Below, one piece after another: positions 14,991 through 41,098 of a stretch of 64,000 bases of DNA (positions are counted from its first letter, which is position 1; every line of letters starts with the position of its first letter). Below the pieces are notes generated by a model. It was not told the origin of the DNA. It was given only the letters and a program-made list of their open reading frames with translations, and did not search any database. Origin of the DNA: Lingula anatina (Eukaryota; Animalia; Brachiopoda). The stretch covers positions 9,424,001 through 9,488,000 of the forward strand of contig CM120643.1 of NCBI GenBank assembly GCA_051362555.1. Direction: 5' to 3'. A program made the position numbers and the translations under genes.

Positions 14991-17900
14991 GTGAGTACTC
15001 CTCAAATTTTATTGTAATTTTCTCAATGATTTCTTTGTTTGCATCCAGGTTAAGTCTAAGTTTAATTACATTTCAGACATAGAATTTTATCAAGATGATG
15101 CAGAGGATCCCCTTGGTGACGGTAAGTGTCTGAATAATTTGCCTTAGTCCCTACAGCAAGTGCCCCAAGAAAACGCAATTTACAAATTTCATTCAACCAA
15201 AGACAATATATTCACTGAGAGGTGCCCTTTGTGATTTTTCTCTTTCCCTTATTTTATGCCCCTTTGTACTGTATATATAACTAAGGAGGGACAATTATAC
15301 CATCGCCAAAAGAGTTAAGGTTTTCACCAACTTTCAAGTATCACTCACCATTACCCCAAAAGTATTTGGTTTTGCTCTTTGGAGCCTTGTGCTCTGGCTG
15401 TCTGAAATAACTAGTTACATTAAATTACATGCATTCCTTGCATTTTCATCTCAAGTTTATTGCAATTTTGCTGTTATGGTTTTTAACTCTTGAAAGGGAA
15501 GCTAAAATGGTATGATGTATAGAAGTGGTTGTAATAGTTAGGATATTAAGCCTTAAGACCACAAGCCCTCACTAAAATTAAATGCATGATTTTAATGCCT
15601 GCGTTAATACACACCATTGTTAAACTAAGATGTTTTCTTTGTTTTTATTTCTCCTCCCTTCTTTCAAATCACATGCATATAAACATTTTATTGCAGTTAC
15701 TGGTATACTGTATAATCTTTGGTGCATTATATATATATACCAATTATGTTAATAAATTTTAAAAAATTGGGACAGTCAGAAAATTTCAAAAATGATATTT
15801 TTCAAGTAAATTAAAACAATTTCCTCTAAAATTCCAAGGATTAGTATCCAAGAATATAAATTCAGATAATCCTTCTTAGTTTATGTTATGTACTGTTCGA
15901 AACGGGATCAGCCAACAAAGTCAAAACATACTCCAGTGCACATTTAAATTTCTTTACTTAGTATTTTGGGATAAAGCAAATTTTATTTGGCATTGAAGTA
16001 AAATTTTAATGAATTTATATTAAATTGATGAATTAAATTTTGTTTGTTATTGCCTGTTTAAGTGCCCCTTTTTATTTTTCTGTTTCTTCAAAATCAGTGT
16101 CTGCATATATATTGAAGTTTAGGTTCCTTTTAAAAGAACTCCAATTTAATCAAATCCTCTCAAAGGCAATTTTAAGTTTGTAATCAACCAAACATACCTG
16201 CGTACCATTTTTAATCACTTGATTTGATACTATTTCAGTTTTTTAATAATATTTAAATAAATGTTTTTAAACCATGTGCACAGGTGATGACATCTTATTT
16301 GGTGGAGATTATGAACAGGGTCAAGAAGATCTGTTAACTCCCTTACAGCGTCTAGAACAGTATGTCAACAATGACAATATATACACAAGGTAAGCCATTG
16401 AGTATTGACAGTATCAATGCAATGTTGTACACAAGGTAAGCCATGTAGTATTGATAGTATCAATGCAGTGTTGTACACAAGGTAAGCCATGTAGTATTGA
16501 CAGTATCAATGCAATGTTGTACACAAGGTAAGCCATGTAGTATTGACAGTATCAATGCAATGTTGTACATAAGGTAAGCCATGTAGTATTGATAGTATCA
16601 ATGCAATGTTGTACATAAGGTAGTTTCATGCACATAAAATCAAAGTTAATTGATCTGGTTTCAAAAAAAAAAAAAAATTAAACCTGAAAAGTGTTCATTG
16701 GTATTTAGTGCATTTCCTCTCAATGACCTTACTGTGCAAGCAATACTGTAATACTGGGGCAAATGTGACATATAGCTTAGTAGCATCACTGTTCCTCAGT
16801 GGCTCACATGGCTGTGATGAAAAGTTGTGTTCATTTTTATGTACAGACACAGATGTGTCTGTACATATTGCCATCACCTGCGTCTGTCGTCGCCGTCGAT
16901 GTCGCCGTCGCCGTTGCCGTGCACTTTCATCGTTAACACGATAAGTGGAAGACAGTTTTACTTTTTGGCTGTATATTTACAGAGCTGTTGAATATTCATA
17001 AAACGCAGGTCAAGTTCGAAAATCAGCATGTTTAGGCCATTATTGTAGAAGTTATGCTGTTTTTTCACTTTTCAGCATATATGCAACACTGTTAACACAT
17101 TTTAAGGAAAACTGATAGGCCTGTTGTCATGAAACTCACAGGAGTAATCAATCTCACTAAAATGCAGGTCAAGTTCGAAAATCAGCATTATCGGGCCATT
17201 ATTTTAGAAGTTATGCTGTTTTTTTCACATTTCCTCAAGTTCAATTCTTAGGCATGTTAATAGTCTCATTATTTAACTAATAAAATACGTAAAGGTGTTT
17301 GTTTCACATTTCCTGCATCTTCACAACATTGTTAGTTGATTATGTAAAAATGATGGTAAACTTTTTATCGTGTTTTGTGTAATAAAGTGTCAAAAATGGA
17401 AATAAACTCATATTATTGCAGTTTGTCTGATTCAATCATCCACTATGTTCAGAATCTCAGAATAGAGGAAATTGGACATTTAACACTGTTGTATTGATAT
17501 TTTCCCCATCTCATCAATTTTCTTAGTTGATCATATAAAAATGGCAGGAAACTGTTAATTTTGTTTTATGTTAAAAAAGTGTTAAAGATGGAAAAAAACC
17601 ATTTCAGAACAGTGCTGTCTTGTTTACTTTTTTGCATTTTCAAGATGTGACTTTGAAGTTCCATGGTCCTGAAGACCTTTGCTAGTCACATTTTCTGAAT
17701 ATCCATGATACTAATATTTTATTATTAAAAATTGATGGTCATTATGCTGTTAAACATTATGTAATGTTGCATCAAAATTTGAAGAAACCCCAATTTTGGG
17801 TACTGCTCCCATGATGACCATTTAAGGAAAACCATGTCACTTACTGTTCTCAAACTTACAGGAAAGAAACATGGGACTAAAATCAACTTCAGTAGGCAAT

Positions 17901-24821: not shown

Positions 24822-27800
24822 CAAAGAATATAAATAAATGGAGGAACAAAATACATTGTGGGATAGTTTTAAGATCAGTTCATGGAAAAATTGTATCACG
24901 ACAGGTGGCCTGATGGCAGAAAGAAAAGCTCATCTGATAAACTGATAGAAAATACCATATTTATTTCTTCACATTGCATAAGAAATGCGTCATTTTGCTT
25001 TGTAAATTACCTATGGCAGTAGATGTTTTGAGCTTAAACAAAAATGGAAATTGGAACCTTTAAATTACATTAAGGAAGAGTTGAGGCATAGTGTTTAAGA
25101 CAAAATTTTATATTTTGGATGCCGCCTTGGGAAAAGCTAACAGAGGCAGACTAAACGTAACTTGCTCTGGCACCAACATCAATGATACTGGGTTGCAAAA
25201 CAAGTGCGATCCTTTCAATAATAAGAGAGAGACAACTCTGGCAAAACGTTGCTGCTGCTGCTTCCTTTCCAAGGGCGAAGGATGATGATGATGATGATGA
25301 TAATTTTTTGTCATATTTCTACATAAAAGTATACAATGAAAATTGATATGATCTGTCAGTAAAATAAAATACAATAGAATAACTTAAATCCATTTTGCTT
25401 ATTAAAAATACGCACTGCTGATGGTTAAAAGCTATTTTAGTTTGACTTCACTTTCTTGAGCACTTGATAATGATGATGTTCAAGACAACTGTTTCTCTGT
25501 ATTTCCAGACAGATGGTGGCGCGGGGGTTGCTGGACACCCTGCGTCAGGTGGCGGAGACGGGGGACGACATCACCAAACTGCTGCAGATTATGATACAGT
25601 TATCTGAGGATCCTGGTAAGAGCTGCTGTAAACACATTTATATGTAAATTTGGGTGAGAGAGAGCCGTACAGGACTTTCAAGTAAATATGTTTCTGAAAA
25701 TTAGACATGGGGGAAGGGGAACAAGAAATGTGGCAGAAGCACTGAGCCTTCAGAAAGCTTCTGTGTATTTATCACATGTTTGTCAAGGCTTTTGGGGGTA
25801 CAGGCCATTCAAAATTACAACCTGTAATTGCCTACAAAATTTCAGGCAGTCCAAGTATGCCTAAAGCTGTAAGATTTCCAAAAAAAATCCATAAGCTGTC
25901 TAGCTGTTTTTGAAAACAAAGGACGTCCTGTGATGCTGGCGGCTGTCCAAATGACTGCTGGACATTTTGCTGGGAAAACCAGGGAAAACCCTTGATGTCA
26001 GTATAACTTAAATTTTTTTGTTATTCCCCAGAGCCCACAGTGAGGTCGGAGCTGATGGAGCAGGTGCCCCACATTGCCATGTTCTGCCAGGAGAATCGCC
26101 ACATAACGCCACTGAAGGACACGGTACCCATGTACCTGATGCCCATGGTGGTGCGGTACCTCATGGATACAAATGGACAGGTAGGTGACACGTGGTGCCA
26201 CCTGGATACAAATGGACAGGTAGGTGACACGTGGTGCCTCCTGGCCCCAGTTTTACATGAAATGTGAAGTCAGTTCCTTGGCTTAGTTGACTAGGATTTC
26301 CATGAGAGTGCTGTTACACTGCTCCTGATAGGATAATATATGCCCATGTGACCAAGTAACCTTGGTAATGAAGTTTTTAGCTAGGGAAATTGACTTAAAT
26401 CTTTTTGTGAAATTGGGAACTGGACATGGACAGACAGGTAAGCGTCACCTTCTATTTCTTCCTGACTATTTTACTGCCTTCTTGAGGATTTGTTTGTATT
26501 TTGTTGAAAGGAAGAAATTCAGGTGGAACGTGTTTTCTCCTCAGCTGTAAGTGTAATTATAGCATTTATATGAACTAGAATAACAGTACATAGATGTTTT
26601 TTTGCCTGTTAGCTATGTATGACAAGATGTTATTTCAGTGTTATTTTAATATTCCATAAGGACAATGCCAAATCGGGTCACTGATGTGTATTTTTAGAGG
26701 CTTAGAGAAGAGATCTCATCAACCCGAGAAAATGTTTTTAGAACCTTTTTGTTATGCAGAAAGTTACAGTGTTGTTTAGGGGGAAAAAAAGTTTATTTTT
26801 GGCATTGGTTCTGTTTTTGGTACTTGTCAAACTATTTATACTGCATAAAAAAGGAAACATTAACAGATAAATGGATGTGGCAGAAGTCGTGTTCAAACAG
26901 AACAGCAACACATCATTTTAATTTGAATTTTATCTTTTGGTATATGACAGAAAACCTCAACGCAAAGGGCTGTTTTATTTTTCATATCTGAAAGTAAAAC
27001 AAGTTTTGTGATTGATAACCATTATGACTTAGATATGCATATAATTGTACATGTTTACCTATATGATAAAGTTTCACATGTGGGCAGAAAAACTGTGGCA
27101 TGAATTGTATTAGATATATACTAGTAGAGAACTCATGTTATGTGTCTGTATATTTGAACAGGTAAGGAAGACGAGCCAAGCAGCATTACTGGTACTACTG
27201 GAGCAAGAGCTGGTGGAAAGAGGTTTGTACAACTAACAGATATTTTTGAAAAAGGATAATCTGGTATAAAGTAGGATTCAGTACCATGTAGTCACATTTT
27301 CCTTCCATTTAAACAAATTTCTATTTAAAGAAAGGGTCTGATTGTTTCAAAGTTTGTTACATTCACACAGTCAGTATTTGATTTATGAATGTTTTTGACA
27401 ATTCAACTCTTTCAAAAGCTGTAGTATGTGCTACTTTGGATCAGTGTTTTTTCAGAATTTGGGGTACAGCGAGTTCAAAATGTGAATCGGTAACTTTGTC
27501 ATCAATTTACAGGGAGTCCAACCCAAGCAAGCCCAACCAACCCATCATTTCCCCAAAAATTTGTCAGCCATTCAGCCATCAACAGAAATATAGGCTGTCC
27601 TTTGAGGCTAATGGCTGGCCAAATGTTGGCTGAATGGCTCTCTGGGGAAAGATATATATATATATATATTGATTCAAATTTCCCTTTGCAGAGGATGTAG
27701 AAGAGCAAGTCTGCCCAGTTATCCTAGAGTTGACTGGACCACACAGTATTGATGAGCATAGGACTGAGGCAGTGGCTGTAAGTATTAGCAGGCCATGAGA

Positions 27801-30800
27801 GGGTCACATGACATAAAAGGTCAAGGCCATAGAGGATGAAAGTGAAACTCAAAAGGCACTCATTCAAAACTACATCTGTATTTTATTTTAGGTTTTCTTT
27901 GAGGTTTTGTTTTGTTAAAATGCAAGCTGAGTTTGACAATCTAAGATAGTTATTTAAATAAGATGACCTGAAAGTCACCGCTGAGGAGGCATAGGAGACG
28001 GCCACTATATTAAAAAGATGATGTATGTGTCACCGCTGAGGAGGCATGGGAGATGGCCACCATATTAAAAAAACGGCGTATGTTATTTCTGTGTGAAAGA
28101 CATGGGTAGTGAGATGCTGTACTTGTGTACCTCACTACCGTGTCTTTTGCATGGAGATGACACAAGATGCAGACTGCCTGGCAGGGAAGGTAAGAGGTGC
28201 AGGAAGAGATCTGTACATGCAGGAGAGGCATCGTGAGCCATCTCTGAAAATTTTTGGGAAAAAGGGGGTTGTGGGCACTTATTTTTTTTATGAAGATTAG
28301 GAAGAGCAATTTATGTTAGTTTGGTTGTATGGAGGGATTTTGTGTCAAACCTGAGGTTTACTATAATCTTTCGTATCTCTTGACAAATTCTTACAATTTT
28401 AAGGCATTATCAAATTGTAATGTCAAGTTCAGTCAGAAATCCCTTAGTTAAAGAATTTCTGCTCTGGATGGGCAATGAGATAAATTAATACCTTTATTGT
28501 ATTTTCTCTCCCACTTACTTTGAGTACACTTTTCAAGTATTTATCTGACCCAGAATAATGTTACTTTGTGTTGTTGGTTTTCTCTGGGCGTCAATCCTGG
28601 TATGTTGTAGTGCATGTACCAATGCTATCACAGCCAGTTTTGATGAGCCAGATGAAGCCTCAGAGTCTACACATTATTTTTTCTCAGAAGGAAAACCCTG
28701 ACAGCCAAATTTTTATCCAATATAACTCCCTATGTTATCTGTTATAGGGGTGTTAGGAGAATGGAGGTTTTTGCAGGTTTTGTGCAAAGAATAGCATGCA
28801 ATTATATGCACATTGGAAAGAGGCTTTCATGGACTAATCATAGTGTTTTGCTTTAGACAGCCAGCTTTTGCCAACATGTCAAAAAAGAAACTTAAGGAAA
28901 AGGAAAATAACATTAACTTAGAAAGCAGTACATTTTGAAATGATTTAGAAAGCAAGTTTGTTGCTCCACCTGGTTGACGACTAAGCAGCGCGTCTTGAAA
29001 TGATACTGATTTGAGCAAGGCAAGCTAGAGTCTCCACCTGGCTGTTGGTGCACAAGATGACTGTGATTTGATCTAAGCTGGTGGCTCCACCTGGCTTTTG
29101 GTGCACATGATGACTGTGGTTTGGTCCAAGCTGGTGGCTCCACCTGGCTGTTGGTGCACATGATGACTCTGGTTTGGTCCAAGCTGGTGGCTCCACCTGG
29201 CTGTTGGTGCACATGATGACTGTGGTTTGGTCTAAGCTGGTGGCTCCACCTGGCTGTGGTGCACATGATGACTGTGGTTTGGTCTAAGCTGGTGGCTCCA
29301 CCTGGCTGTTGGTGCACATGATGACTGTGGTTTGGTCTAAGTGGCAGTGGTATGTGTCAGTGGCAGCGTATCACAGCCTGCTTGGATCAGACTGCTTCTA
29401 TCTTCACACTTCACCATAACTCACTGCCTGCCTAACAAGACACCAGGGTTTGCATATTAATACAAGTTGTCGTGGTCACAGCTGCCTGGTTCGTTAACAT
29501 CACTGCAACTTTTTTTGCATGAATGTCACCATGATGCTCTCACTTAAACTGGCTAGAATGATGGAATGAACTTCTTGAACATCACCACTTATTTTGACTT
29601 TTACTATGTAGACTCTAGTATACGTGGTAAATGCTATCGGAATGATTGGGTGAAGAATTGAAATCTTTTCTTTCATTGTACCTGACCTAATGTTACAGAC
29701 TTTGGGAGCTCAAGTTATGGAAAATTTTCTCTTGTCAATATCAGCGATCTTGCGTAGAAGCACCCGTGGATGTGTCGTATGTAAGGAATGCGTTAGTTGA
29801 GATGAGTGTGTTGTGTGGCTGGTCAAAGTGGTTGTGACAGGGTGTGCTAGCTCTCCTATCACAGCCTGCTTTGATGAGCTGCACACAACACCAGACCACT
29901 GCCACTGGCTCTGCTTGTGATGGGATCTGGCGAATTGTTTTCCATAACATTGATACTGAAGTAATTATGGCCATGGAGTCCTGCTTTAGAAGAGAATTGC
30001 TATTCAGAGCTATTTTATTATTAAATATCTGTGGAAATTTTTAGAAGATAGGATATTCCTTAAAAGGAATCTAGTGTCTTAAATTTTCAACCTTCTGTGG
30101 ACTGTTCATATGGGCTGCTGTACATTGGAACGTGCTGCCATCTATTGTGGGAGACCAGCCCTCAGAGCTTCCTGTGTTATGTTTTTTTTCTGTCATATCA
30201 CAGCCTGCTTTGATGAGCTGTTTTACCATGCTGACTGTGTGATTGTCTCTGGTATAACATCCAGTCCCTAAGACCACAGATTTTGTGATTGTTCTAAGGC
30301 ATCATGACCTTTCAAAGAGGATGAACAAATTTTTTTTAAATGTTGCCACTTTTGTGTCTGTAAATTGATATTATTTCTGTATTTCCAGTGTCATTGCTGT
30401 TAAGTTTTTACAAGTTTCCTGTCGTTGCATGAAACCTTGGAAATGGGGTGACTTGTTGTTCTTGGAAGAAGTTAATATCTGGTTGCATTGAAATAGAATA
30501 ATATGATCACATATATGTCAGCCTACACTTGATGCTTCATAATTTTCCACAACAATTTCTTTAAAGACAGTCTCAGCGCGTTAAACCCTTAAAATAGCAC
30601 GAAAATGAATTTTCCTGGAAATCTCACCAATTTCCCCATAATGACCAAGGTATATCCTATCCAAAACCGTTCAGAAAATGAAGCTACCTAATACCGTTTT
30701 TAAGTTCCATTAAATAATAAAAGACGACTCGTCTTAAATACTCAGCTACCACCTCACAGTACGGCTTCAGAACGCGCAATTTTTCGCTAAGTCTCGCGGT

Positions 30801-33800
30801 TTACTATGAATGAAGTACTACGGCTGAGACCCGGATGTTACTATTTGGCGCCAAAACAGCAAACATGGCTCAGACGCGCGTCAAGTCTGAAGAGGAGAGC
30901 GACAAAAGGGGACGAAAGAAAATAGCCACTCCAGTTCGAAAGATACGAAAGAAAATTAGAGACAGATGAAGAAGCACTCAGACTGTGTATGTTGGGAGGG
31001 AGGTGGGGCGGTGGAGGACACTTAAAGCTGAGTTAGGACTCACATACGAGGCAATGGCGAAACTACTCCTCGACACGTGAGTATGCGCTTCACAGGTCTC
31101 AAGTGTAACTGATTATCATATTATCCTGTTCACAATAAATGACAATATTTGTGCTCATACAAAGTTGGTTACGTGTATAAGAGCGTTTTGGGCTTTACGT
31201 TTTCTGTTTTTGATCGGTACATGTACCGAAAAGATGGACAGGCGGCACTTACATGTCTGACAAGTTTCGCTGTGTAGTCGTGACGTCTATCTCATTCTGA
31301 CTGAAGCCTGCTGTGATTGGTCGTAAGCGTGGGAAAATCGAGGTCGTGACCTTGAGCCGGAAGTACTTCTGGCTGTGCTCCGAAATCATGATAAATAGTT
31401 TTCGTTTTCTAATTCTTTATTCTAGTTGTCTTAACAGGACTTTTGTGACTCAGACTTATTAATATAATAATAAACAATCTCACAAAATACAAATCTGATC
31501 AAAGTTTTACATAGAACCTGCTTCTATACATTAATCTAACCCACTGAGACTGTCTTTAAGTTTTCAAATTGATATTTAGTAAGGTACTTTTAAAGCTTAT
31601 ATCTGTTTTTTGCATGATTACTGAAAATCTGATCAATATCAAAGAAATATTTTGCTTGGACACAACAATTGTTTCGAGCAAATAAACAGCAATGGAAAAT
31701 TTGGTGAAAATAGCTGGGCCAGCAACTGCAGAACATTTTATATAAGAGGAGAGAGAGTTGTTATAATTCTAGGAAAAACCACCAACTCTTCATGATTCTT
31801 GTTCTGAAGTATTTGCTTCCCATAGCCATTGGAGGGGTTGTGATGTGTCTAAGAGATATCATATCACAGCCTGCTTTGATGAGCTATTGGCTGCTTTCCT
31901 CAACACTGAAATTATCACACATGAAGAAAACTTTGATACTTAGCCTATGAATCTGATGATTTTCATACAACTTGGGCAGTGCATATAATTGATGTGATAA
32001 AATTTTAATTATATTTTTGACATGAATTATATTTTGAAAATGGTTTACAAATTGGTCAAAAAGCTGGAGTTAAGAGTCTTATAAGAACAGGTGTTCAAAA
32101 GAGACTAGTTTCCCACCATTCAACAACAAGAAATCTGTCATTAAGCCATATTCTGGTCAGCTCGGATGGATCTAAAAACTGTATCAGTTAAACTATTTAT
32201 TTTGCATTTATTTTCTAGTTGATGAGCAAGATGACACCTCTGGTGGGGAGCGACATGGCAGAAAGGTTGTTTTTACCCAGATTTGTGGTTCTCTGCACAG
32301 ACCCTTTGTTTCACATCAGAAAGGTAAGACAGCGGCAGATATCTTTTAGCTGTGATGTTAACAGAAAACATGTATGTAGAAATTAAAGGTGTTTATGAAT
32401 TCGACATCTGTAGATAGTAATCAGGTAATAAGCCCTGGCCTTTTCCCAGGATTGGGGATGCAGGGCGCCTAAAATTACTACCTTTTCTTTCCTACAAAAT
32501 TTTGGGGAGTCCAAGTGTGCCTAAAGCCTTCATATATCCAAAAAATCAATAAGTCCTACAGCCGTCTCTGAAAATATAGGCCGGTTGGTGATGCTGGAGG
32601 CCATCCAAGTGACAGCTGGACGGTTTGCTGGGAAAACTCTTGAATTAGCCTATATTGGGAGTATGCTGTGGTGAAGTTGTTAATCCTGGTTGTTTGGATA
32701 TAGAAATAATTGTGAATGTTAAAGTTGTCCCATGTGTGTATTTGTTCAGGCTTTGGTGTCTGATTTGTTTTCTTGATAATATTGTATATGTATATGTGTA
32801 ATATGTATATGTGTAATAAGTATATGTGTAATATGTATATTATATGTGCTTCAGGTCTGTGCAGCTAACTTTGGTGAAATGTGCAGTGTTGTTGGCACCG
32901 CGGCTACGGAAAAGCATTTGGTATGTATAATATTTTTCCTCTTGTACACACTCACTCTCTCTCTTCTTCCCTCCCCCCCCCCAATTCCCCCTTTCATTCT
33001 TGTCAACTGATAAATGTTGCTTAGTTTGTTGTATCTTATCTTACGAAAACAGTGTTCTTCAGGGGAATGGTACAGCCTATTACAGATACGTTCAAAGAAA
33101 GAGTAAATGGCTGGCAATTAATGTAAATTATTAGTGCTAGTTTATAACACAACATATGCAATGAAATATTTTGTGGTGATGTTACGTCCTATATTGAGTT
33201 CTTTAGTAACAAAAAAATAAAGCATAAACATAAATACGAATGAAAACAAACACCTCAAATTAAAATGATAATATTTTACTAATTGAACTAAAACCTAACT
33301 AAACATACAATAACATTGAACTAAATAACTTAACGAATATGGGCTTTATAATGTTCAAACAAAATTAGTGTTCACAGGATAAGAGAGTCATTCCACGCAC
33401 TTCCATTTCATTGTCATTGTTCATTTGTGTAGGCCTACATACCTTCCTTGCGTTGTTCGTAATAGTCAATGCTTTTTCTCAACGTTACTTATCTTTTGTC
33501 AATCATAGTTCCCTCTCTGTTTTCAGTCAACTTGTGTACTGATGCATGTACAATCACTCGCTTTTTCAAGCTTCCATATTTTCCATCAACTTGTGTACTA
33601 GTACACGTACAGTCACTCACTTTCCTTTACCTCCATGTATAGTACTATACATCCACGATCAGTTAAGACGTAGTCCATCTATCCTAGCTCCTTGCTCTCC
33701 ACGCCTACATGTCTCTCTTTCCTTCCTATCTCAGTGGGTGTGTCCAAAAACCTCCACATCCAGGCTCCTTTATTTTTGTCCACAGTTGTCACCAAAGGTG

Positions 33801-36800
33801 ACCACAAGTTATACTCGCTATAGTTATAATGCCCATTGATAGGATACAATTGACAGGAGTACTAGTGCAACGTAACAGTGATCACAGCTTTATGTATAAA
33901 AATATGTATTTATTTATTTACTTCTGTAATTATGTGTTTACAGTTGCCAAAATTCCATTACCTTTGTGAAGATGGAGTGTGGAATGTCCGGAAAGCATGT
34001 GCAGAGTGTTTCACGGCCGTTTCGTGTGCGTGCTCACAAGAATGTCGCAAGAAAGAACTAGCTGGGCTGTTCATTAACTTATTATGTGATCAATCTAGAT
34101 GGGTAAGTACTGCATTAATTTTTAAAGTTTATTTTGTTTGTGAAGTTGGTACATGTTTGGCATTTCATACCAAAATCAAAATCCTTATTGTCTTTAGTGA
34201 TGCTGTGGTTACAATGGCCAAAATTTGTTTTGTTTATAGAATAAAATTAATTGAAGAAAGAGATCTTGGTTTAATTTGAAGGTCCAGTTTAGAATTTAGA
34301 AATACATGAATCTGCTGTTGCTAGAAAAATAATAGAAAGAGTAAAATAAACCCCTTCCAATCTGAACTGTTCATAAACCAAAGACCAAATTACAGATCAG
34401 CCGCCTGGTACCACATTATATCAGACAACCTGATTTTGATCAGTTGCCGTTTTCACTCATGTCACCCTTCACTAAACCCAAATGTCCTCTGATAAAACAT
34501 GTTTTTGTTTTTTCTTATCCAGGTGCGTATGGCAGCTTTCCAGGCTCTAGGTCCCTTCATCTCCACTTTTGCTGATCCCAGCATCACTGGGCTCTACTTC
34601 AATGAAGATGGTGTCTTATCGGTCGGACAGGTGGCGCCACAGAAAAACAAGTGAGATTTCCTTTATATTAGTTGTACAATAATTACTGAACTTACGTTTT
34701 TTTTTTTCTTTCTGACATTAAAGCAGTTTGAGGTAGTCATTTTGCTTTTCATATTGTTATTGATTCTAGAATTTACTTACTCCTAGTCAGCATGTTGTTT
34801 TGCTTAGATGAGCTGAATGCTGCAAGAAAAATTGATTAGAAATGAGAATTGCTCTTCATTTTTTGCAGCACCAAATCTCCAACAACAGAAGAGGCAAACA
34901 ACAACAAAAGTGATGGAGAGAAGAAGGGAGAAGAAGGAAATCCAGAGGGGACCAAAGAGGGTGACAAAGAGCAGGAGGTGAAGACTCCTGAAATTCCAAA
35001 CAACACAATTCAGCATCAAGAACAACAAATAGGCAGTAACAGTAATAATGCAAGGACTAGTACAAATGACACCGACAGCGTTCAGGATTCTAGGCAGGTG
35101 ACAGAATCGGTGTCTGATAAGAGTGGTTCCACGGCTGAAGAAGCTATTGACAATAGTCAGAATGATATTTTATCTATAGAAGATTACATAAATAACCTTG
35201 CTATGGAAATTGAGGCGAGTAGTTTAAGTGAAGAGAACGGCAGTGGAGATGGTATCGATAAGCATAATGACGTGCTTTCCGTCGAAGAAAAGCGTGCCGA
35301 AAAGTGGAAGCAGTCTCATCCCAGTGTGCCTCAGTCATCAGATCCCGATTCCGATGATGTCATTAACGCCTGTGATACACCAAGCGAACAAGGTTTTCAG
35401 AGTCAGGAATCAACCACCAGTGCCTCAGGGGCAACGCACATTCATTTGGACAATATGGCCGCCTTCTCCAGTTTTAATTACTGGCGGACGCCTTTACCCC
35501 AGTTAGATTTACACTTGGATATTGTTGAAGGTAAAGCTACAAATATTCACGTGACGGCAAAAGTGGTGGACCCAGTCCAGCATAAAGTGTTCTCCTCAAA
35601 AATGGACGTTGAGGTCGATAGCTCGCCAACACCCTCTTCTTCCGGAGACGGAGACTTGGAGCTCTCTGACGAAGGTGAGGTGAAAATCCATACTGCGAGT
35701 GTTAACTTGGTGAGTGCCGAGGAACCAGAGGAAACCGACTATATCGGCAGCATGCACGTGATTGGTCAGAATTTGAACGAGTCCACGATGGCTGTGATCA
35801 ATGGTGTGGTGCAAGGTACAGTAGGTAAACGTTGTCCAATGAAGGTCCCCCCACCCCCACCCCCCACCCCCCACCCCCCACCCAATTTGAAAAGTTGGAA
35901 AATTTCTTCCCCCTTTATTATGATCAGACAGTTTTGTGTTTGGACATTTCTGGTTGTTTAGGCCAGTGTCCTCCTTTACATGAATTCATATATATGGAAT
36001 CCTATATTCAGAAATGCCCTTTTCCAGGATTTTGCAATTCCAGACAAGAATGCCAGTTTTTTTTGTTTTTTTTTTGTTCCTCTAGTGTATTTATTGATGC
36101 ATTGTATTGCCATCATACAAATTTTAAAATGAAAAGTATGATGTTTCATGAAAATTGATTCATTTGCCCAAGATCTGTACTCTATTCTAAATCAGTATTT
36201 TTTTAATTTTCATTTTTAATGGATTTCATTCAATGGGAAAAGATGTTAAAATTCAACAGGAATGCCTAAAAGTATATTTCATTATTTGATTTGTTCCATA
36301 AATAATAGAACGCTTATAAACTTGTGAAATAACTCAGAATGATGATTTATCATAAAATTTAGTACCAAAACCCATCATAATGATAACAATATCAACCTTG
36401 CCTATGACACATGCCCACCACTCCATGTAATTATACCAAGGGCTCTTGCTCATCCTCTTGTTTCTCTAATATCTGTTTTAGTTGGAAGTACCTTCATCTT
36501 TTGTTGGTCTTTTGTAACCTATCTATAAAGTATGGGTCTTCAAGACCTTTGACATTCGACCACAGCACATTTATATAAAAATTTGCTTTGCTCAAAGATT
36601 GGTCTCAGTAATTTGCTGTATGCTGATTTTCACAAACTACCCTATCAAGAATTTTGCATGCTGAGCAAGATTGTTTATTAAAATAAAGTGATATCGTCTG
36701 TTAAGGATACAGTTTGTGGCAAGTCCATGATTTTTAATGAAAAGTCTGTTTCATTGGTTGTTTGCTGATGTAAGCTGTAGAGCTCGGCATCATTTGCATA

Positions 36801-38305: not shown

Positions 38306-41098
38306 TCCCTCCCTGTCTGTCTGTCCGTCTGTCTGTCAAGGAGAACACCACTTATTATGGAGAACACCAGTCTCCATGCTTCTAACCTATAATTTGAATC
38401 AAATGCTATGTACTGTATTTCAGTTGCTGAACCCTAGCACCAGATCCATGTATCTCCCCAAGGTGGCCGAGTTCCTGACCACAGACAACTCTAGAAACTG
38501 GAGGTTCAGAGAAGAGTTGGGACAGTAAGATGATGAACATTTATATTAATCCTCAAATTCAGGAAATTAAGTATTGCGAGGCTTAAATCCAAGGGGCAAA
38601 TTTTCACTCCATCTGCATGTGGAGACCGGTATTAGAAGTACACAGAAATCACACACAGTATTCATTGGTTTGAGTGGTCCTTCATGGATTATATGTGGAT
38701 AGTATAAAAGATTTAGACCACAGCTGTAATAAATAATCTTATAGGCACTGTTAATACTTCTGTCTAATTTGCACTAGTAAAGAATTGAGGGGGCTTATTC
38801 ATGTGCATTATATAGCTCTGTAGATTATTTGATAAATGCTAAAATTGTGTTCCCCTTGCAGACAACTAGTCTCACTGTGTGAGTTGTTCTCCTGTGATGA
38901 GTTGAGCCGGCATATTTTGCCCATTGCTCTCACTCTGGCGGAAGACAGGGTGGCGGAGGTCCGCAGCATAGCACTCAAAGATGTGAGTATTTCCATTGAT
39001 GCCATTGCTTCATATATGACCACCAAATGTTTATTTCTCATATGTTTTATTATGCACTATATGAGCACACGTGTTCAAAGAGTGCATTTAGAACAGCTGA
39101 CTTACAGATCCATGAATCAAATATGGCGACCCATGAAAAAAACTTGCCGCTTAATACCCGATTGGACACTGAATAGATTCCCTGTGGGAATTACGCAACA
39201 AGTATTCAAGTGATCTGTTAATCCGCTGCTTTGAATGTGCTCCCAGACACACAAATCTGGTGTTGCTGTGTTTTGTGTCGAACACTTTGAACATGTGTGC
39301 TTGCACTGTGCATGATAAAATATATGAGAAATAAACTTGTAAATTAGGAAAATGGCAAGTTTTCAGTTCAATTTCACTTTCTGTTTCGGCAAGATATTTC
39401 AAGGCAAAATAACAATTATTTTCAGACTTTGTGAGTTCACTAAACACTAAAACAGTTGGAAATGATTATGTCTAACAGTATCATCAGCTTTGTGATGACT
39501 CCCATCATATATTATAGATATAACAAATGCCTGTGATAAAACGATCACTCTGTTCTCTTCTTGTTGGCTGTAATTTTGAAGAGTTTTTTAAAAGAATTCT
39601 GTCTAATAGTGTCATCAGCCTGTGTTAAAAAATTAATACTCTGTTCTCTTCTAGTTGGCTGCAATTTTGAAGAGTTTTTTAAACGATTCTGTCTAGTAGT
39701 GTCTAGCCATTGTTAAAAACGACTACTCTGTTCTTTTCCAGTTGGCTGTGATTTTGAGGTGTTTTAACGAGAGTGGCGAGGAGAATGTGTCCCAGAGCTT
39801 CTTAGCCACTGCCTTAGACAAGTTTGCTCACAGTGACAAATGGTACAGGAGGCAGACGTGAGTGATCTTAAAATCAAAAATTTTTGATTAAAATGTTCAT
39901 TATCTGGAAATGGTAGAATGTAGAAAATATTTAGAGAGTATTTTTGTTTTGAAAATTGGGCAGACTGAACGGAGGCATTGCATTGGTTATTAAAGCGTGT
40001 TACAATGGTAGTATTTTTTTTTGTCAACAGAATCACTTTTGTGAACATATAAGTATACTAATATTCAATAAGATTACTTGCTCAAAATATTAAAAAATGA
40101 AGAATGTGACTAATGATAATATGATATCAAAACAAACCATGTTTTCTAAAGAAACATAACATTGGTCATATGAGGAAAGGAAAATGTAACAAGATCACGG
40201 TGATAATGACATACTAGTTTCTTTGTATCAAAGCTCTCAGTTCTTATTAAATGTTTCCATCTTTCAGCTATGCACATTTGTGTTACCACATTCTCCAAGA
40301 AAACTCCTGCTCTGCTGAACAGTTTGCCATCAGCTGGATGCCAGCGCTTCTTAGCCTAGCAAAGGATCCAATTCCTAATGTTCGCCTGGCATTGGGAAAA
40401 GCACTGTCGCAGTTTGTGATACCTGTTGGTAAGAATCTCTCCCCCCCCCCTCCCCCCTACCTGATCTCCCCCCTTTCTCCTCCCATGTTAACTTTGAAAA
40501 GTTGTGTCAAATGACAAGCATGTGTATGTGTCACAAAGCCTACTCTGGTTAAATGGTTTTCATAAAACTGCTTGTTTGCTAAATATCAGTTTTAGATATA
40601 CAGATCAACTTTGACTATAGCAGTTGTTAAATCTTTACGGTTGCTTGATTTTCTGCCCCACCCCCCTTGCTAACTTTTTTGCAGTGTATGGCATATATTT
40701 AAGAGTTAAATTCTCCCTCATCCCTGATAAATTATGGCCTATTTAATATAATATAATTATAAACTCATTTTACATTCAAATGGACCAGGTATTATGGTCT
40801 AATTGCTATTTCAGACTATTTCACCAGTTACACCACCCCCCAGTTACACCACTTACTTGATATAATTATTAACTTATTTTACATTAATTGACAAATGGAC
40901 CAGACACTGTGTTTTTAGATAAGGGTAAAATGGAGTCACAAATAAATAATTTTTCTTTCAGACTATTTCACCAGTTACACCAACCCACATCACCAGCTGC
41001 TGCTGGAGACCATCCAAGCCATGAAGGCCGACGCTGACAGAGATGTCCGGGGCTTCGTCTCCATGCCACCACAGACTGAAATTGAACATCTAGACACA
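14984..41098 (+). CDS. PPP4R1: Serine/threonine-protein phosphatase 4 regulatory subunit 1 (HEAT-repeat scaffold); whole spliced gene, 20 coding exons, ~1027 aa, terminal exon uncertain
   Basis: GT-AG exons join in frame: MADIEFYQDD...LLTPLQRLEQY...RQMVARGLLDTL...EPTVRSELMEQVPHIAMFCQEN...VRKTSQAALL...VCAANFGEMC...VWNVRKACAECF...WVRMAAFQALGPFISTFA...FSSFNYWRTPLP...WKVRRTLAFSIHELA...RNWRFREEL...DPIPNVRLALGK...DADRDVR. Colinear with the vertebrate PPP4R1 sequence as recalled. Confidence 0.96.
15077..15121 (+). CDS. PPP4R1: PPP4R1 exon 2
   Basis: tttcag|ACATAG...GACG|gtaagt; DIEFYQDDAEDPLGD. Confidence 0.85.
16284..16389 (+). CDS. PPP4R1: PPP4R1 exon 3
   Basis: GDDILFGGDYEQGQEDLLTPLQRLEQYVNNDNIYTR; cag|...|gtaagc. 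Confidence 0.92.
16383..16623 (+). repeat. 46-bp tandem repeat (5 copies plus partial) spanning the exon 3 splice donor
   Basis: Unit acacaagGTAAGCcatgtagtattgacagtatcaatgcaatgttgt. Confidence 0.95.
16836..20371 (+). mobile_element. Helentron/HINE (DINE-1-like) non-autonomous element carrying internal tandem repeats
   Basis: 5' T-run plus subterminal palindrome atgtacagacac-a-gatgtgtctgtacat, then a (CGTCGC)n microsatellite, repeated gcaggtcaagttcgaaaatcagcat cores and ~335-bp repeats (17640, 17978, 18310, 20166). 3' end has subTIR gtctgtacat, hairpin gacagc-ttt-gctgcc and TT. Confidence 0.7.
18562..20098. mobile_element. Foldback DNA element with ~570-bp inverted arms, nested in the HINE
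   Basis: Left arm 18562-~19132 (caataaagggaaccggagaagatcagc...ttgacgaatttt) is the reverse complement of ~19520-20098 with scattered mismatches. CA...TG termini; no clear TSD. Confidence 0.85.
24764..24818. repeat. (CT)n microsatellite (others at ~24490-24522 and ~38257-38302)
   Basis: Read directly from the sequence. Confidence 0.95.
25509..25615 (+). CDS. PPP4R1: PPP4R1 exon 4
   Basis: RQMVARGLLDTLRQVAETGDDITKLLQIMIQLSEDP; ccag|...|gtaaga. Confidence 0.94.
25783..25995 (+). repeat. Dispersed ~210-bp repeat (copies at ~32433-32643, degenerate at ~27441-27650)
   Basis: Shared cctacaaaattt...agtccaagt(a/g)tgcctaaagc...gtgatgctgg...tttgctgggaaaac. Confidence 0.7.
26032..26180 (+). CDS. PPP4R1: PPP4R1 exon 5
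   Basis: EPTVRSELMEQVPHIAMFCQEN...VVRYLMDTNGQ; ccag|...|gtaggt. Confidence 0.94.
26244..26419 (+). mobile_element. MITE family C (CWG TSD), copy 1
   Basis: CTG TSD; gccccagtttt...aaattggg TIR; homologous to 37036-37212. Confidence 0.75.
27162..27222 (+). CDS. PPP4R1: PPP4R1 exon 6
   Basis: VRKTSQAALLVLLEQELVER; acag|...|gtttgt. Confidence 0.93.
27692..27777 (+). CDS. PPP4R1: PPP4R1 exon 7
   Basis: EDVEEQVCPVILELTGPHSIDEHRTEAVA; gcag|...|gtaagt. Confidence 0.93.
27974..28083 (+). repeat. 55-bp tandem duplication abutting pre-miR-71
   Basis: gtcaccgctgaggaggcat(a/g)ggaga(c/t)ggccac(t/c)atattaaaaa at 27974 and 28029. Confidence 0.9.
28081..28162 (+). ncRNA. mir-71: pre-miR-71 (mature 5p TGAAAGACATGGGTAGTGAGATG, 28094-28116)
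   Basis: Matches the canonical miR-71 mature sequence. The 3' arm cctcactaccgtgtcttttgca pairs with it, and the flanks tgttatttctgtg/catggagatgaca extend the stem. Confidence 0.97.
28576..28659 (+). ncRNA. mir-2: pre-miR-2 copy 1 (mature 3p TATCACAGCCAGTTTTGATGAGC, 28626-28648)
   Basis: miR-2 seed ATCACAG; one substitution from canonical miR-2a; 5' arm tctgggcgtcaatcctggtatgttgtag folds back on it. Confidence 0.93.
29021..29341 (+). repeat. 53-bp tandem repeat, 6 copies, overlapping the 5' arm of pre-miR-2 copy 2
   Basis: Unit aagctggtggctccacctggctgttggtgcacatgatgactgtggtttggtct; degenerate precursor copy at ~28953. Confidence 0.95.
29327..29395 (+). ncRNA. mir-2: pre-miR-2 copy 2 (mature 3p TATCACAGCCTGCTTGGATCAGA, 29369-29391)
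   Basis: miR-2 variant of the type recalled from lophotrochozoans; 5' arm gtggtttggtctaagtggcagtggtatg pairs with the 3' arm over 15 contiguous basal pairs. Confidence 0.93.
29807..29891 (+). ncRNA. mir-2: pre-miR-2 copy 3 (mature TATCACAGCCTGCTTTGATGAGC, 29857-29879)
   Basis: 5' arm gtgttgtgtggctggtcaaagtggttgtgacagg pairs with the mature arm plus gctgcacacaacac. Confidence 0.95.
30147..30230 (+). ncRNA. mir-2: pre-miR-2 copy 4 (mature TATCACAGCCTGCTTTGATGAGC, 30196-30218)
   Basis: Mature identical to copy 3; 5' arm cagccctcagagcttcctgtgttatg. Confidence 0.9.
30565..31555 (+). mobile_element. Non-autonomous Kolobok-type DNA transposon (991 bp) with a remnant first coding exon
   Basis: TTAA TSD (30561-30564 and 31556-31559) and 12-bp TIR AGACAGTCTCAG/CTGAGACTGTCT. 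Internal exon 30865-31076 reads MAQTRVK...RDR*RSTQTVYVGREVGRWRTLKAELGLTYEAMAKLLLD|gtgagt, resembling N-termini of Kolobok-associated proteins. Confidence 0.8.
31815..31894 (+). ncRNA. mir-2: pre-miR-2 copy 5 (mature TATCACAGCCTGCTTTGATGAGC, 31862-31884)
   Basis: Mature identical to copies 3 and 4; 5' arm catagccattggaggggttgtgatgtg. Confidence 0.92.
32219..32323 (+). CDS. PPP4R1: PPP4R1 exon 8
   Basis: LMSKMTPLVGSDMAERLFLPRFVVLCTDPLFHIRK; ctag|...|gtaaga. Confidence 0.93.
32855..32920 (+). CDS. PPP4R1: PPP4R1 exon 9
   Basis: VCAANFGEMCSVVGTAATEKHL; tcag|...|gtatgt. Confidence 0.93.
33944..34102 (+). CDS. PPP4R1: PPP4R1 exon 10
   Basis: LPKFHYLCEDGVWNVRKACAECF...LLCDQSRW; acag|...|gtaagt. 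Confidence 0.94.
34523..34650 (+). CDS. PPP4R1: PPP4R1 exon 11
   Basis: VRMAAFQALGPFISTFADPSITGLYF...; ccag|...|gtgaga. Confidence 0.92.
34869..35815 (+). CDS. PPP4R1: PPP4R1 exon 12 (large acidic, disordered linker)
   Basis: Lies within ORF 34849..35961 and contains the conserved FSSFNYWRTPLP motif. A same-phase alternative donor is possible after 35824. Confidence 0.9.
36871..37001 (+). CDS. PPP4R1: PPP4R1 exon 13
   Basis: DVNSPSGMYGG...NTITKLQ; ccag|...|gtaagt; phases fit both neighbours. Confidence 0.85.
37036..37212 (+). mobile_element. MITE family C (CWG TSD), copy 2
   Basis: CAG TSD; gccccattttcacaaaaaact/agtttttttgtgaaactggggc TIR. Confidence 0.8.
37503..37688 (+). CDS. PPP4R1: PPP4R1 exon 14
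   Basis: DVIPQILLDNYLSMTD...HCAYSFPAVAYTLGREHW...NIQ. Confidence 0.94.
37965..38126 (+). CDS. PPP4R1: PPP4R1 exon 15
   Basis: WKVRRTLAFSIHELA...DLDEVRVGVLTHLADFLK. Confidence 0.95.
38424..38524 (+). CDS. PPP4R1: PPP4R1 exon 16
   Basis: LLNPSTRSMYLPKVAEFLTTDNSRNWRFREELG. Confidence 0.94.
38862..38982 (+). CDS. PPP4R1: PPP4R1 exon 17
   Basis: QLVSLCELFS...LAEDRVAEVRSIALKD; gcag|...|gtgagt. Confidence 0.93.
39080..39242. mobile_element. Degenerate family B MITE
   Basis: gagtgcattt...gaatgtgctc ends; shares acagatcc/tcaaatatggcg with 3144-3347. Confidence 0.55.
39470..39770 (+). repeat. ~87-91-bp tandem repeat (3 copies) spanning the exon 18 acceptor
   Basis: ctctgttct(c/t)ttc..(t/a)g|ttggctg..attttga repeated at ~39548, ~39639 and ~39726. 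Confidence 0.85.
39742..39857 (+). CDS. PPP4R1: PPP4R1 exon 18
   Basis: LAVILRCFNESGEE...FAHSDKWYRRQT; ccag|...|gtgagt. Confidence 0.9.
40268..40428 (+). CDS. PPP4R1: PPP4R1 exon 19
   Basis: YAHLCYHILQE...LAKDPIPNVRLALGKALSQ. Confidence 0.93.
40962..41098 (+). CDS. PPP4R1: PPP4R1 exon 20 (3' boundary uncertain; a short terminal exon may start at 42447)
   Basis: DYFTSYTNPHHQLLLETIQAMKADADRDVRGFVS...; donor-like gtaggt at 41099; candidate acceptor cacag| at 42446. Confidence 0.82.

What the first reader, a model, noticed from the sequence alone, without database searches (positions are those of the whole stretch)
29021..29395. Tandem array of six anti-miR-2 units fused to the miR-2 hairpin it matches
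Seen: the last 53-bp unit supplies the basal 15 nt of the 5' arm of pre-miR-2 copy 2 (gtggtttggtctaag). The repeated phase reads tggtctaagc-[tggtggctccacct]-ggctgt(t)ggtg. The first block pairs with the 3' half of the mature miRNA (gcuuggauca). The last block pairs with its seed half (uaucacagcc; 10/10 with G:U in copy 5). The insert between them contains its own hairpin (ggtgg-ct-ccacc). Copy 1 also carries a perfect seed match, CTGTGAT, at ~29061. Each unit is therefore a near-full antisense site with a central loop-out, like a bulged sponge. Inference: in the pri-miRNA these units could compete with the true star arm and tune Drosha processing of this one paralog in a copy-number-dependent way. 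Alternatively a stable intron fragment could act as a decoy. I know of no description of this arrangement.
Basis: partly seen in the sequence, partly recalled or inferred. Interest (0 to 1): 0.8.

Follow-up and report, generated by a model that had tools for sequence, protein, structure and literature searches.

The report
Minisatellite copied from a microRNA arm
In the lamp shell Lingula, a 53-base repeat whose copy number likely varies between animals has duplicated the front edge of a miR-2 microRNA hairpin, so its match to the microRNA is likely a by-product of the same local duplication that copies exon edges in this gene, and the normal hairpin is predicted to fold regardless of copy number.

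Summary
The array is real: six 53-bp units (29025-29341) end inside the 5' side of a miR-2 hairpin of the mir-71/miR-2 cluster, in a PPP4R1 intron of Lingula anatina. Unit-to-unit junctions appear in 5 of 5 DNA runs laid, so it is no assembly artefact. Contig graphs suggest two units in one divergent sample and about six in another. The antisense match exists, but there are five composite sites, not six, and none has a Watson-Crick seed in register. Folding does not support copy-number tuning: with the majority unit the normal hairpin holds at least 99% for 1-6 copies. Competition appears mainly through a one-base deletion in unit 5, depends on the boundaries folded, and vanishes under local folding. 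Two orthologous hairpins from other animals lack the array. Best reading: a 'mirage'-type minisatellite anchored on a microRNA arm instead of a splice junction; three exon-edge mirages lie in the same gene. The scan noted exon-edge mirages on other Lingula DNA before (this changed my reading), but no microRNA-anchored case. RNA runs gave no reads, which is no test.

The parts
29025..29341 (+). Minisatellite, six units (29025-29077, 29078-29130, 29131-29183, 29184-29236, 29237-29288 [52 nt], 29289-29341); each unit ends in a copy of the hairpin's lower-stem strand and the first bases of the star strand
   Evidence: TRF period 53 x5.9, 95%; units listed; units 4 and 6 identical, unit 1 differs from them at 6 places; junction contigs in 5 of 5 DNA runs
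28923..29020 (+). Older, decayed units upstream of the array
   Evidence: 28954-28976 matches the unit at 19 of 23 (0 of 1000 shuffles); 28923-28956 matches 28983-29019 (0 of 1000 shuffles)
29320..29402 (+). pri-miR-2 hairpin (second miR-2 copy of the cluster); its first 22 nt are the end of unit 6
   Evidence: -40.6 kcal/mol, z -5.25; Rfam mir-2 E 0.0022, below gathering; if the mature is 23 nt, UG falls at -14/-13 and CNNC at +18 (mature length not measured)
29369..29390 (+). Predicted mature miR-2 (3' arm)
   Evidence: Identical 22-mer in mir-71-linked hairpins of L001 and L002
29221..29265 (+). Best composite antisense site (junction of units 4 and 5), created by a one-base deletion in unit 5
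   Evidence: Duplex -26.5 kcal/mol against -24.4 for the own arm; replacing unit 5 by the majority unit cuts the shifted fold from 14% to 1.3% at 37 C and from 32% to 2% at 25 C
28088..28156 (+). mir-71 hairpin, first gene of the cluster
   Evidence: Rfam RF00832, 59.7 bits
27974..28083 (+). Second duplication (55 bp x2) that ends in the basal stem of mir-71
   Evidence: TRF 87% matches; no predicted effect on mir-71 folding
28575..28660 (+). First miR-2 copy (mature from 28626)
   Evidence: Seed motif and hairpin fold; no Rfam hit at E<=1
29816..29883 (+). Third miR-2 copy
   Evidence: Rfam RF00047 50.7 bits
30155..30222 (+). Fourth miR-2 copy
   Evidence: Rfam RF00047 37.5 bits, E 9.4e-5
31822..31888 (+). 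Fifth miR-2 copy
   Evidence: Rfam RF00047 51.4 bits
27691..27780 (+). Host gene PPP4R1, exon block before the intron that holds the cluster (next block 32219-32326)
   Evidence: 100% match of 34855-35820 to NCBI-named Lingula anatina PPP4R1-like protein; exon blocks by tblastn

Best explanation
The array is a minisatellite whose 53-bp unit includes the 5' edge of the neighbouring miR-2 hairpin, and it is likely a neutral product of the edge-anchored tandem duplication ('mirage') process that has also copied exon edges in this gene. Shown: the unit's last 22 bases are the hairpin's lower-stem strand and start of the star strand, so pairing to the 3' half of the mature microRNA is automatic. 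Inferred: the array began by slippage or repair at a short AAG(CT) microhomology, turns over with homogenised inner units and decaying 5' units, and is bounded on the right because the last unit is the working arm. Inferred, about even odds: the seed-pairing block is a fossil of the rest of the star arm, split from the first block by a 14-base templated insertion; otherwise it is a chance GU-rich match. Predicted: the normal hairpin folds and is cut as usual whatever the copy number; rare unit variants such as unit 5 could divert a small share of transcripts.
For: Array in 5 of 5 DNA runs from 5 samples and 4 studies, with flanks up to about 8% divergent; graph of X8 fits two units (shared 35-nt contig at depth 83, flanks 42-43, junction contig 41.5), summed depth in X1 382-397 against 64 on the hairpin. 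Inner units differ by 0-2 substitutions or one deleted base from unit 6, boundary unit by 6, decayed units upstream, the pattern described for amphioxus mirages (PMC3087553, passages). Exon-edge arrays in the same gene at 16382, 26164 and 39538; 5 of 7 arrays in the gene span overlap an exon or hairpin edge (P 0.01) and 7 of 7 lie within 20 nt (P 5e-5). Majority-unit arrays leave the hairpin at least 99% normal and compete no better than shuffled ones (69 of 257 as good). Both orthologous hairpins lack an upstream array or antisense site (best -14.1 and -12.9 kcal/mol in 119 windows each). Three paired or pairable variants in other samples keep or improve normal-hairpin pairs (29363, 29368, 29397), and those of X8 remove the shifted fold in the model.
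Against: The seed-pairing block is better than random genomic 38-mers (P 0.004) though not clearly better than shuffles of the unit (P 0.10 for unit 6, 0.02 for unit 1). In this haplotype the shifted fold reaches 14-50% for some boundaries and 49-75% in a four-unit construct that keeps unit 5. The consensus unit is matched without differences in samples whose flanks differ by 5-8%, which fits homogenisation or constraint alike. Enrichment at hairpins alone is not significant (2 of 7, P 0.06-0.07), the 20-nt margin was chosen after seeing the data, and this array is one of the seven. No close relative without the array was available, so origin steps are inferred.
Confidence: 0.78

Rival explanations
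1. Cis attenuator: the array lets the nascent RNA fold into a register-shifted three-way junction (star arm trapped by unit 6, mature arm paired to upstream units) that Microprocessor would process poorly, so array alleles tune this one paralog.
For: Shifted fold is the minimum-energy structure of 28950-29420; ensembles constrained to upstream partners lie 0.6-6 kcal/mol above the normal one; unit 6 and the star arm can form a -19 kcal/mol hairpin before the 3' arm is made; precedent of a repeat next to pre-miR-137 whose length tracks miR-137 level (PMC6299112, passages).
Against: No copy-number effect with the majority unit; effect needs the unit 5 deletion, which no laid run listed (weak, since the tables also omit known unit variants); at most 0.6% under local folding; X8-type variants remove it; four other miR-2 copies with the same seed would buffer any change.
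Confidence: 0.13
2. Trans decoy: the intron fragment between the first and second miR-2 hairpins survives as a stable RNA and binds Argonaute-loaded miR-2, or feeds back on its own primary transcript as let-7 does in C. elegans.
For: Four sites of -22.7 to -26.5 kcal/mol, against a minimum of -22.6 in 3158 other 45-nt windows of the gene; central loop-out as in designed sponges (recalled); let-7 precedent (PMC4172024, passage).
Against: No Watson-Crick seed in register (G:U at nt 3, plus a bulge in the majority unit); 3' pairing starts at nt 12 with an offset of about +13, whereas let-7a position-12 sites are best at 0 to +1 and weaken beyond (PMC8940178, passages); seed blocks are predicted to be paired (chance of 10 nt unpaired 0.0003-0.009, no control run); the three commonest paralogs pair less well in their 3' half.
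Confidence: 0.05
3. Assembly artefact: the array is a mis-assembled expansion of one unit.
For: The single-base deletion in unit 5 shortens a TT run, a typical long-read consensus error (inference); exact unit number was not read from single molecules.
Against: 'Goes back 53' joints in X1, X2, X3 and X7 and a junction contig in X8; units carry distinct substitutions.
Confidence: 0.02

Closest known systems
Amphioxus 'mirage' minisatellites (Adh3, globins BflGb6/BflGb9; PMC3087553, passages)
   Same: Head-to-tail copies whose end unit is the edge of a working element; unit size in the reported range (10-160 bp); length differs between haplotypes (6 and 3 units there); inner units homogenised, boundary unit left out; host function reported undisturbed. 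Three true exon-edge mirages lie in this gene.
   Different: The anchor is a microRNA arm deep in an intron, about 1.2 kb from the nearest exon edge, so no splice signal is copied; the spare copies are antisense to a small RNA instead of cryptic splice sites.
miR-137 15-nt VNTR (PMC6299112 and PMC8269442, passages)
   Same: Length-variable tandem repeat just 5' of a pre-miRNA.
   Different: There the repeat lies outside the hairpin and higher copy number is linked to lower microRNA and altered splicing; here the unit is part of the arm and antisense to the mature strand, and no effect is shown.
miR-941 tandem repeat (PMC3493648, passages)
   Same: Intronic, copy-number-variable tandem repeat tied to a microRNA.
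   Different: There two repeat units form the precursor and each copy can yield microRNA; here units hold no 3' arm and give no Rfam hit.
Protostome mir-71/mir-2 cluster (Rfam RF00832, RF00047; PMC3384581, passages)
   Same: mir-71 followed by tandem miR-2 paralogs; linkage to PPP4R1 exons also in L001 and L002.
   Different: The passages read describe whole-hairpin duplication, not amplification of one arm's edge.
let-7 site in its own primary transcript (C. elegans; PMC4172024, one passage of a review)
   Same: Sequence complementary to the mature microRNA in its own transcript.
   Different: That site acts through Argonaute and promotes processing; the sites here lack a Watson-Crick seed and are absent from both orthologues examined.

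Membership tests
Mirage minisatellite | Head-to-tail minisatellite units of about 10-160 bp | tested here: met
   53 bp x5.9, 95%
Mirage minisatellite | Unit spans an exon-intron boundary | tested here: not met
   Nearest exon blocks end at 27780 and start at 32219; the unit spans a hairpin edge. It works like a mirage but is not one by the published definition.
Mirage minisatellite | Length differs between haplotypes | tested here: met
   Two units inferred in X8, at least three pieces in an X7 contig, about six in X1 and the window; inferred from contig graphs and depth, not from single molecules
Mirage minisatellite | Inner units homogenised, boundary unit diverged | tested here: met
   Units 4 and 6 identical; unit 1 differs at 6 places; decayed units upstream
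Mirage minisatellite | Host element still works normally | tested here: inconclusive
   Predicted by folding; no small-RNA data
microRNA sponge / decoy | Several sites with Watson-Crick pairing to nt 2-7/8 | tested here: not met
   One 7-mer (29061) outside the composite register; composite sites have G:U and a bulge in the seed
microRNA sponge / decoy | Stable, abundant RNA that meets Argonaute | tested here: inconclusive
   0 reads in 3 of 3 RNA runs over the whole intron stretch, flagged 'no test'
miR-137-type regulatory VNTR | Length-variable repeat at the 5' side of a pre-miRNA | tested here: met
miR-137-type regulatory VNTR | Copy number changes mature microRNA level | not testable with these tools
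   Folding predicts no effect for the majority unit; no expression data
miR-941-type repeat-built microRNA | Repeat units themselves form precursors | tested here: not met
   No Rfam match on units 1-5 at E<=1; no mature-seed motif in the units
mir-71/mir-2 cluster (host locus) | mir-71 linked to tandem miR-2 hairpins on one strand | tested here: met

The most novel reading that the evidence does not exclude
The array is a polymorphic, self-made RNA switch: duplicated star-arm copies let the nascent transcript slip into a register-shifted fold that hides one miR-2 paralog from Microprocessor, and single-base unit variants such as unit 5, more than copy number, set the share that is lost, giving allele- and temperature-dependent output of one microRNA in a conserved cluster.
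Probability: 0.13. Interest if true: 0.7.

Novelty: new variant of a known kind. Interest (0 to 1): 0.3.

Why it matters
If mirage-type arrays also anchor on microRNA hairpins, the process that makes them needs no splice signal and more likely acts at edges of conserved sequence islands; the paper read calls that mechanism unclear. This window offers two hairpin-anchored duplications and L002 a third array that starts at a miR-2 basal junction, so a genome-wide count becomes a direct test. The locus is also a natural allelic series (about two to six star-arm copies) for asking how well a pri-miRNA tolerates competing arms. As a regulatory device it is unproven and, on the folding evidence, unlikely.

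Tried and rejected
No whole genome was held for the window, so no genome-wide count of arrays at microRNA or exon edges. No RNA holder was listed; three raw RNA runs (about 6, 6 and 25 in 100 of each read) gave 0 reads on 29280-30300, which is no test of expression or of a stable fragment. Only the last unit was in the stretch laid, so unit numbers come from contig graphs and summed depth, which the tool warns is no copy number; X1 carries the window's flank haplotype and may be its source; tables were cut (45 and 18 variant rows, 19 contig rows not shown), so the four differences in X8's second unit could not be read. Of 9 DNA holders listed, 5 were laid. Idea that the 55-bp repeat before mir-71 is a decayed copy of the mir-71 arm: rejected as not significant (P 0.13-0.19 and 0.65-0.70). 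Fossil-star-arm origin of the seed block: inconclusive (majority unit P 0.28-0.76 against shuffles and 0.03-0.07 against genomic windows; unit 5 P 0.02-0.04 but picked after the fact). Of 12 flank-versus-arm alignments only this array was clearly significant. In one search the gap for unit 5 was misplaced, so its row overstates differences by one; the true difference from unit 6 is one deleted base. Literature: ten searches; listings for tandem repeat/VNTR with pri-miRNA (15), alternative structure with Microprocessor (31), minisatellite with pre-miRNA (36) and mirage (51) showed no arm-derived antisense array, and a 2026 review of clustered microRNA regulation has no occurrence of 'repeat' (PMC13686912, passages). 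The library lacks most subscription papers; no supplements were read, and microRNA catalogues with Lingula read counts could not be seen. Earlier scan notes: nothing near this place or like this sequence, no microRNA-anchored mirage.

Full report
Setting. The window is from the brachiopod Lingula anatina: the frame at 34855-35820 is 100% identical to a protein named PPP4R1-like in that species, and its exon blocks run from 15070 to 41122 on the + strand. The intron between blocks 27691-27780 and 32219-32326 holds mir-71 (28088-28156) and five miR-2 mature sequences (28626, 29369, 29857, 30196, 31862). This is the usual protostome mir-71/mir-2 cluster (PMC3384581, passages); two metagenome loci show mir-71, the same 22-nt mature and PPP4R1 exon matches in the same order.

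The observation. Tandem Repeats Finder gives 29032-29341, period 53, 5.9 copies, 95% matches. In the phase that ends at the shared AAG the units are 29025-29341; units 4 and 6 are identical, unit 5 lacks one T, units 2 and 3 differ from unit 6 at two places each, unit 1 at six. Two older, decayed stretches continue to about 28923 (0 of 1000 shuffles each). The hairpin 29320-29402 folds at -40.6 kcal/mol (z -5.25), and its first 22 bases are the end of unit 6; with a 23-nt mature (length not measured) the basal UG and a CNNC fall at the usual places (motif positions recalled). So each unit ends in a copy of the lower-stem strand and the start of the star strand, and its pairing to mature nt 12-21 is automatic. 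A composite site needs two neighbouring units, so there are five. Duplex energies are -19.3, -25.0, -25.0, -26.5 and -22.7 kcal/mol, against -24.4 for the own arm; none of 3158 other 45-nt windows of the gene reaches -22.7. The seed-side pairing has G:U at nt 1 and 3 and, except at junction 4/5, a bulged U. The 7-mer at 29061 is one of 15 on this strand and lies outside that register.

Is it real and variable? Contigs of 5 of 5 DNA runs laid on 29280-30300 (five samples, four studies; X1 may be the source) show a unit-to-unit junction: 'goes back 53' joints in X1, X2, X3 and X7, and a two-piece junction contig in X8. Flanks differ by up to 7.6% (X3) and 8.5% (X8), so the array is older than those splits. 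The X8 graph fits two units (shared contig at depth 83, flanks 42-43); X1 has summed depth 382-397 over the unit against 64 on the hairpin. These counts are approximate. The two orthologous hairpins of other animals have no upstream array and no upstream antisense site. Three RNA runs gave no reads on the intron stretch, which is no test.

Does it compete with the star arm? That result is fragile. Over 24 boundary pairs the median is 1.2% at 37 C (6 of 24 above 10%, none above 50%) and 4.4% at 25 C (7 of 24 above 10%, one at 50%). With pair spans capped at 100-300 nt it is at most 0.6%. With 1, 2, 3, 4 or 6 copies of the majority unit the normal hairpin holds at least 99.2%; replacing unit 5 alone cuts the shifted share from 14% to 1.3% and from 32% to 2%. 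Constructs that keep unit 5 peak at four units (49% and 75%) and fall again at six, so there is no steady copy-number rule. Shuffling the 35 non-arm bases of the unit gave equal or stronger competition in 69 of 257 trials, and above 10% in 22: the real unit is not tuned to compete. No laid run listed the unit 5 deletion, but the tables also omit unit variants that a contig shows, so this is weak. Variants in other samples at 29363 and 29368 turn G:U pairs of the normal hairpin into A:U, 29397 adds a lower-stem pair, and 29359 is in the loop; put on the window haplotype, the X8 set removes the shifted fold while the X3/X7 variant barely changes it. Against neutrality: unit 6 and the star arm can form a -19 kcal/mol hairpin before the 3' arm is made, so a kinetic trap is not excluded.

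As a decoy in trans the sites are poor: no Watson-Crick seed, 3' pairing from nt 12 with an offset near +13, where let-7a sites of that position are best at 0 to +1 (PMC8940178, passages), and predicted low accessibility (no control).

What it most likely is. An earlier scan note on other Lingula DNA pointed to 'mirage' minisatellites. The paper it cited defines them as tandem copies of exon-intron boundaries, unstable in length, homogenised inside, diverged at the boundary, and not disturbing splicing, with unclear mechanism (PMC3087553, passages). I checked this gene: arrays at 16382-16622 and 26164-26244 copy donors, 39538-39765 copies an acceptor, two more end within 20 nt of acceptors, and a 55-bp pair ends in the basal stem of mir-71. 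Of 7 arrays with period 25 or more in the gene span, 5 overlap an exon or hairpin edge (P 0.01) and 7 lie within 20 nt (P 5e-5); hairpins alone give 2 of 7 (P 0.06-0.07). Edges were set by hand, the margin was chosen afterwards, one array is AT-rich low complexity, and an eighth array outside the gene was left out. In L002 a 20-bp array begins at the last base of a miR-2 basal stem. The simplest reading is the same process acting on a microRNA arm: duplication at a short microhomology, turnover of units, decay on the free side, and a fixed right end because the last unit is the working arm (inferred). The seed-side block resembles the continuation of the star arm and the orthologous star arms, and the 14-base insert has a short direct and a short inverted repeat, as templated repair insertions do (recalled); the tests were inconclusive, so I give fossil arm and chance about even odds.

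Comparison and novelty. It fails the defining mirage feature (no exon boundary) but meets the others tested; it resembles the miR-137 VNTR in position (PMC6299112, PMC8269442, passages) and differs from miR-941, whose units build precursors (PMC3493648, passages). Listings of searches showed no arm-derived antisense array; coverage of the library is partial. Verdict: real, likely neutral, a new variant of a known repeat type. Interest 0.3; the switch reading has probability about 0.13 and would merit 0.7.

Noticed in passing
window 16382-16622, 26164-26244, 39538-39765: Exon-edge (mirage) minisatellites in PPP4R1: 46 bp x5.2 and 39 bp x2.1 copy donors, 91 bp x2.5 copies an acceptor.
   Followed up: yes
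window 27974-28083: 55-bp duplication ending in the basal stem of mir-71; no predicted effect on its fold, resemblance to the mir-71 arm not significant.
   Followed up: yes
L002 1132-1237 (hairpin on the - strand, mature about 1250-1271): 20-bp x5.3 minisatellite that starts at the last base of a miR-2 basal stem in another animal.
   Followed up: partly
window 28815-28880: Weak hairpin (-14.6 kcal/mol) with a miR-2-like 3' arm lacking the seed start; possibly a decayed paralog.
   Followed up: partly
window 29476-29492: Decayed look-alike of the mature miR-2 arm 85 nt downstream (P 0.004 genomic, 0.06 shuffled, one of 12 tests); varies in other samples.
   Followed up: partly
window 30560-31560: About 1-kb element with terminal inverted repeats between the fourth and fifth miR-2 copies; likely a non-autonomous DNA transposon.
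   Followed up: no
window 29400-30300: Samples under one species label differ by 5-8.5% in this intron, which may reflect very high diversity or cryptic species.
   Followed up: no
window 25792-25979 and 32452-32637: Two 75%-identical copies of a roughly 190-bp dispersed element in neighbouring introns.
   Followed up: no
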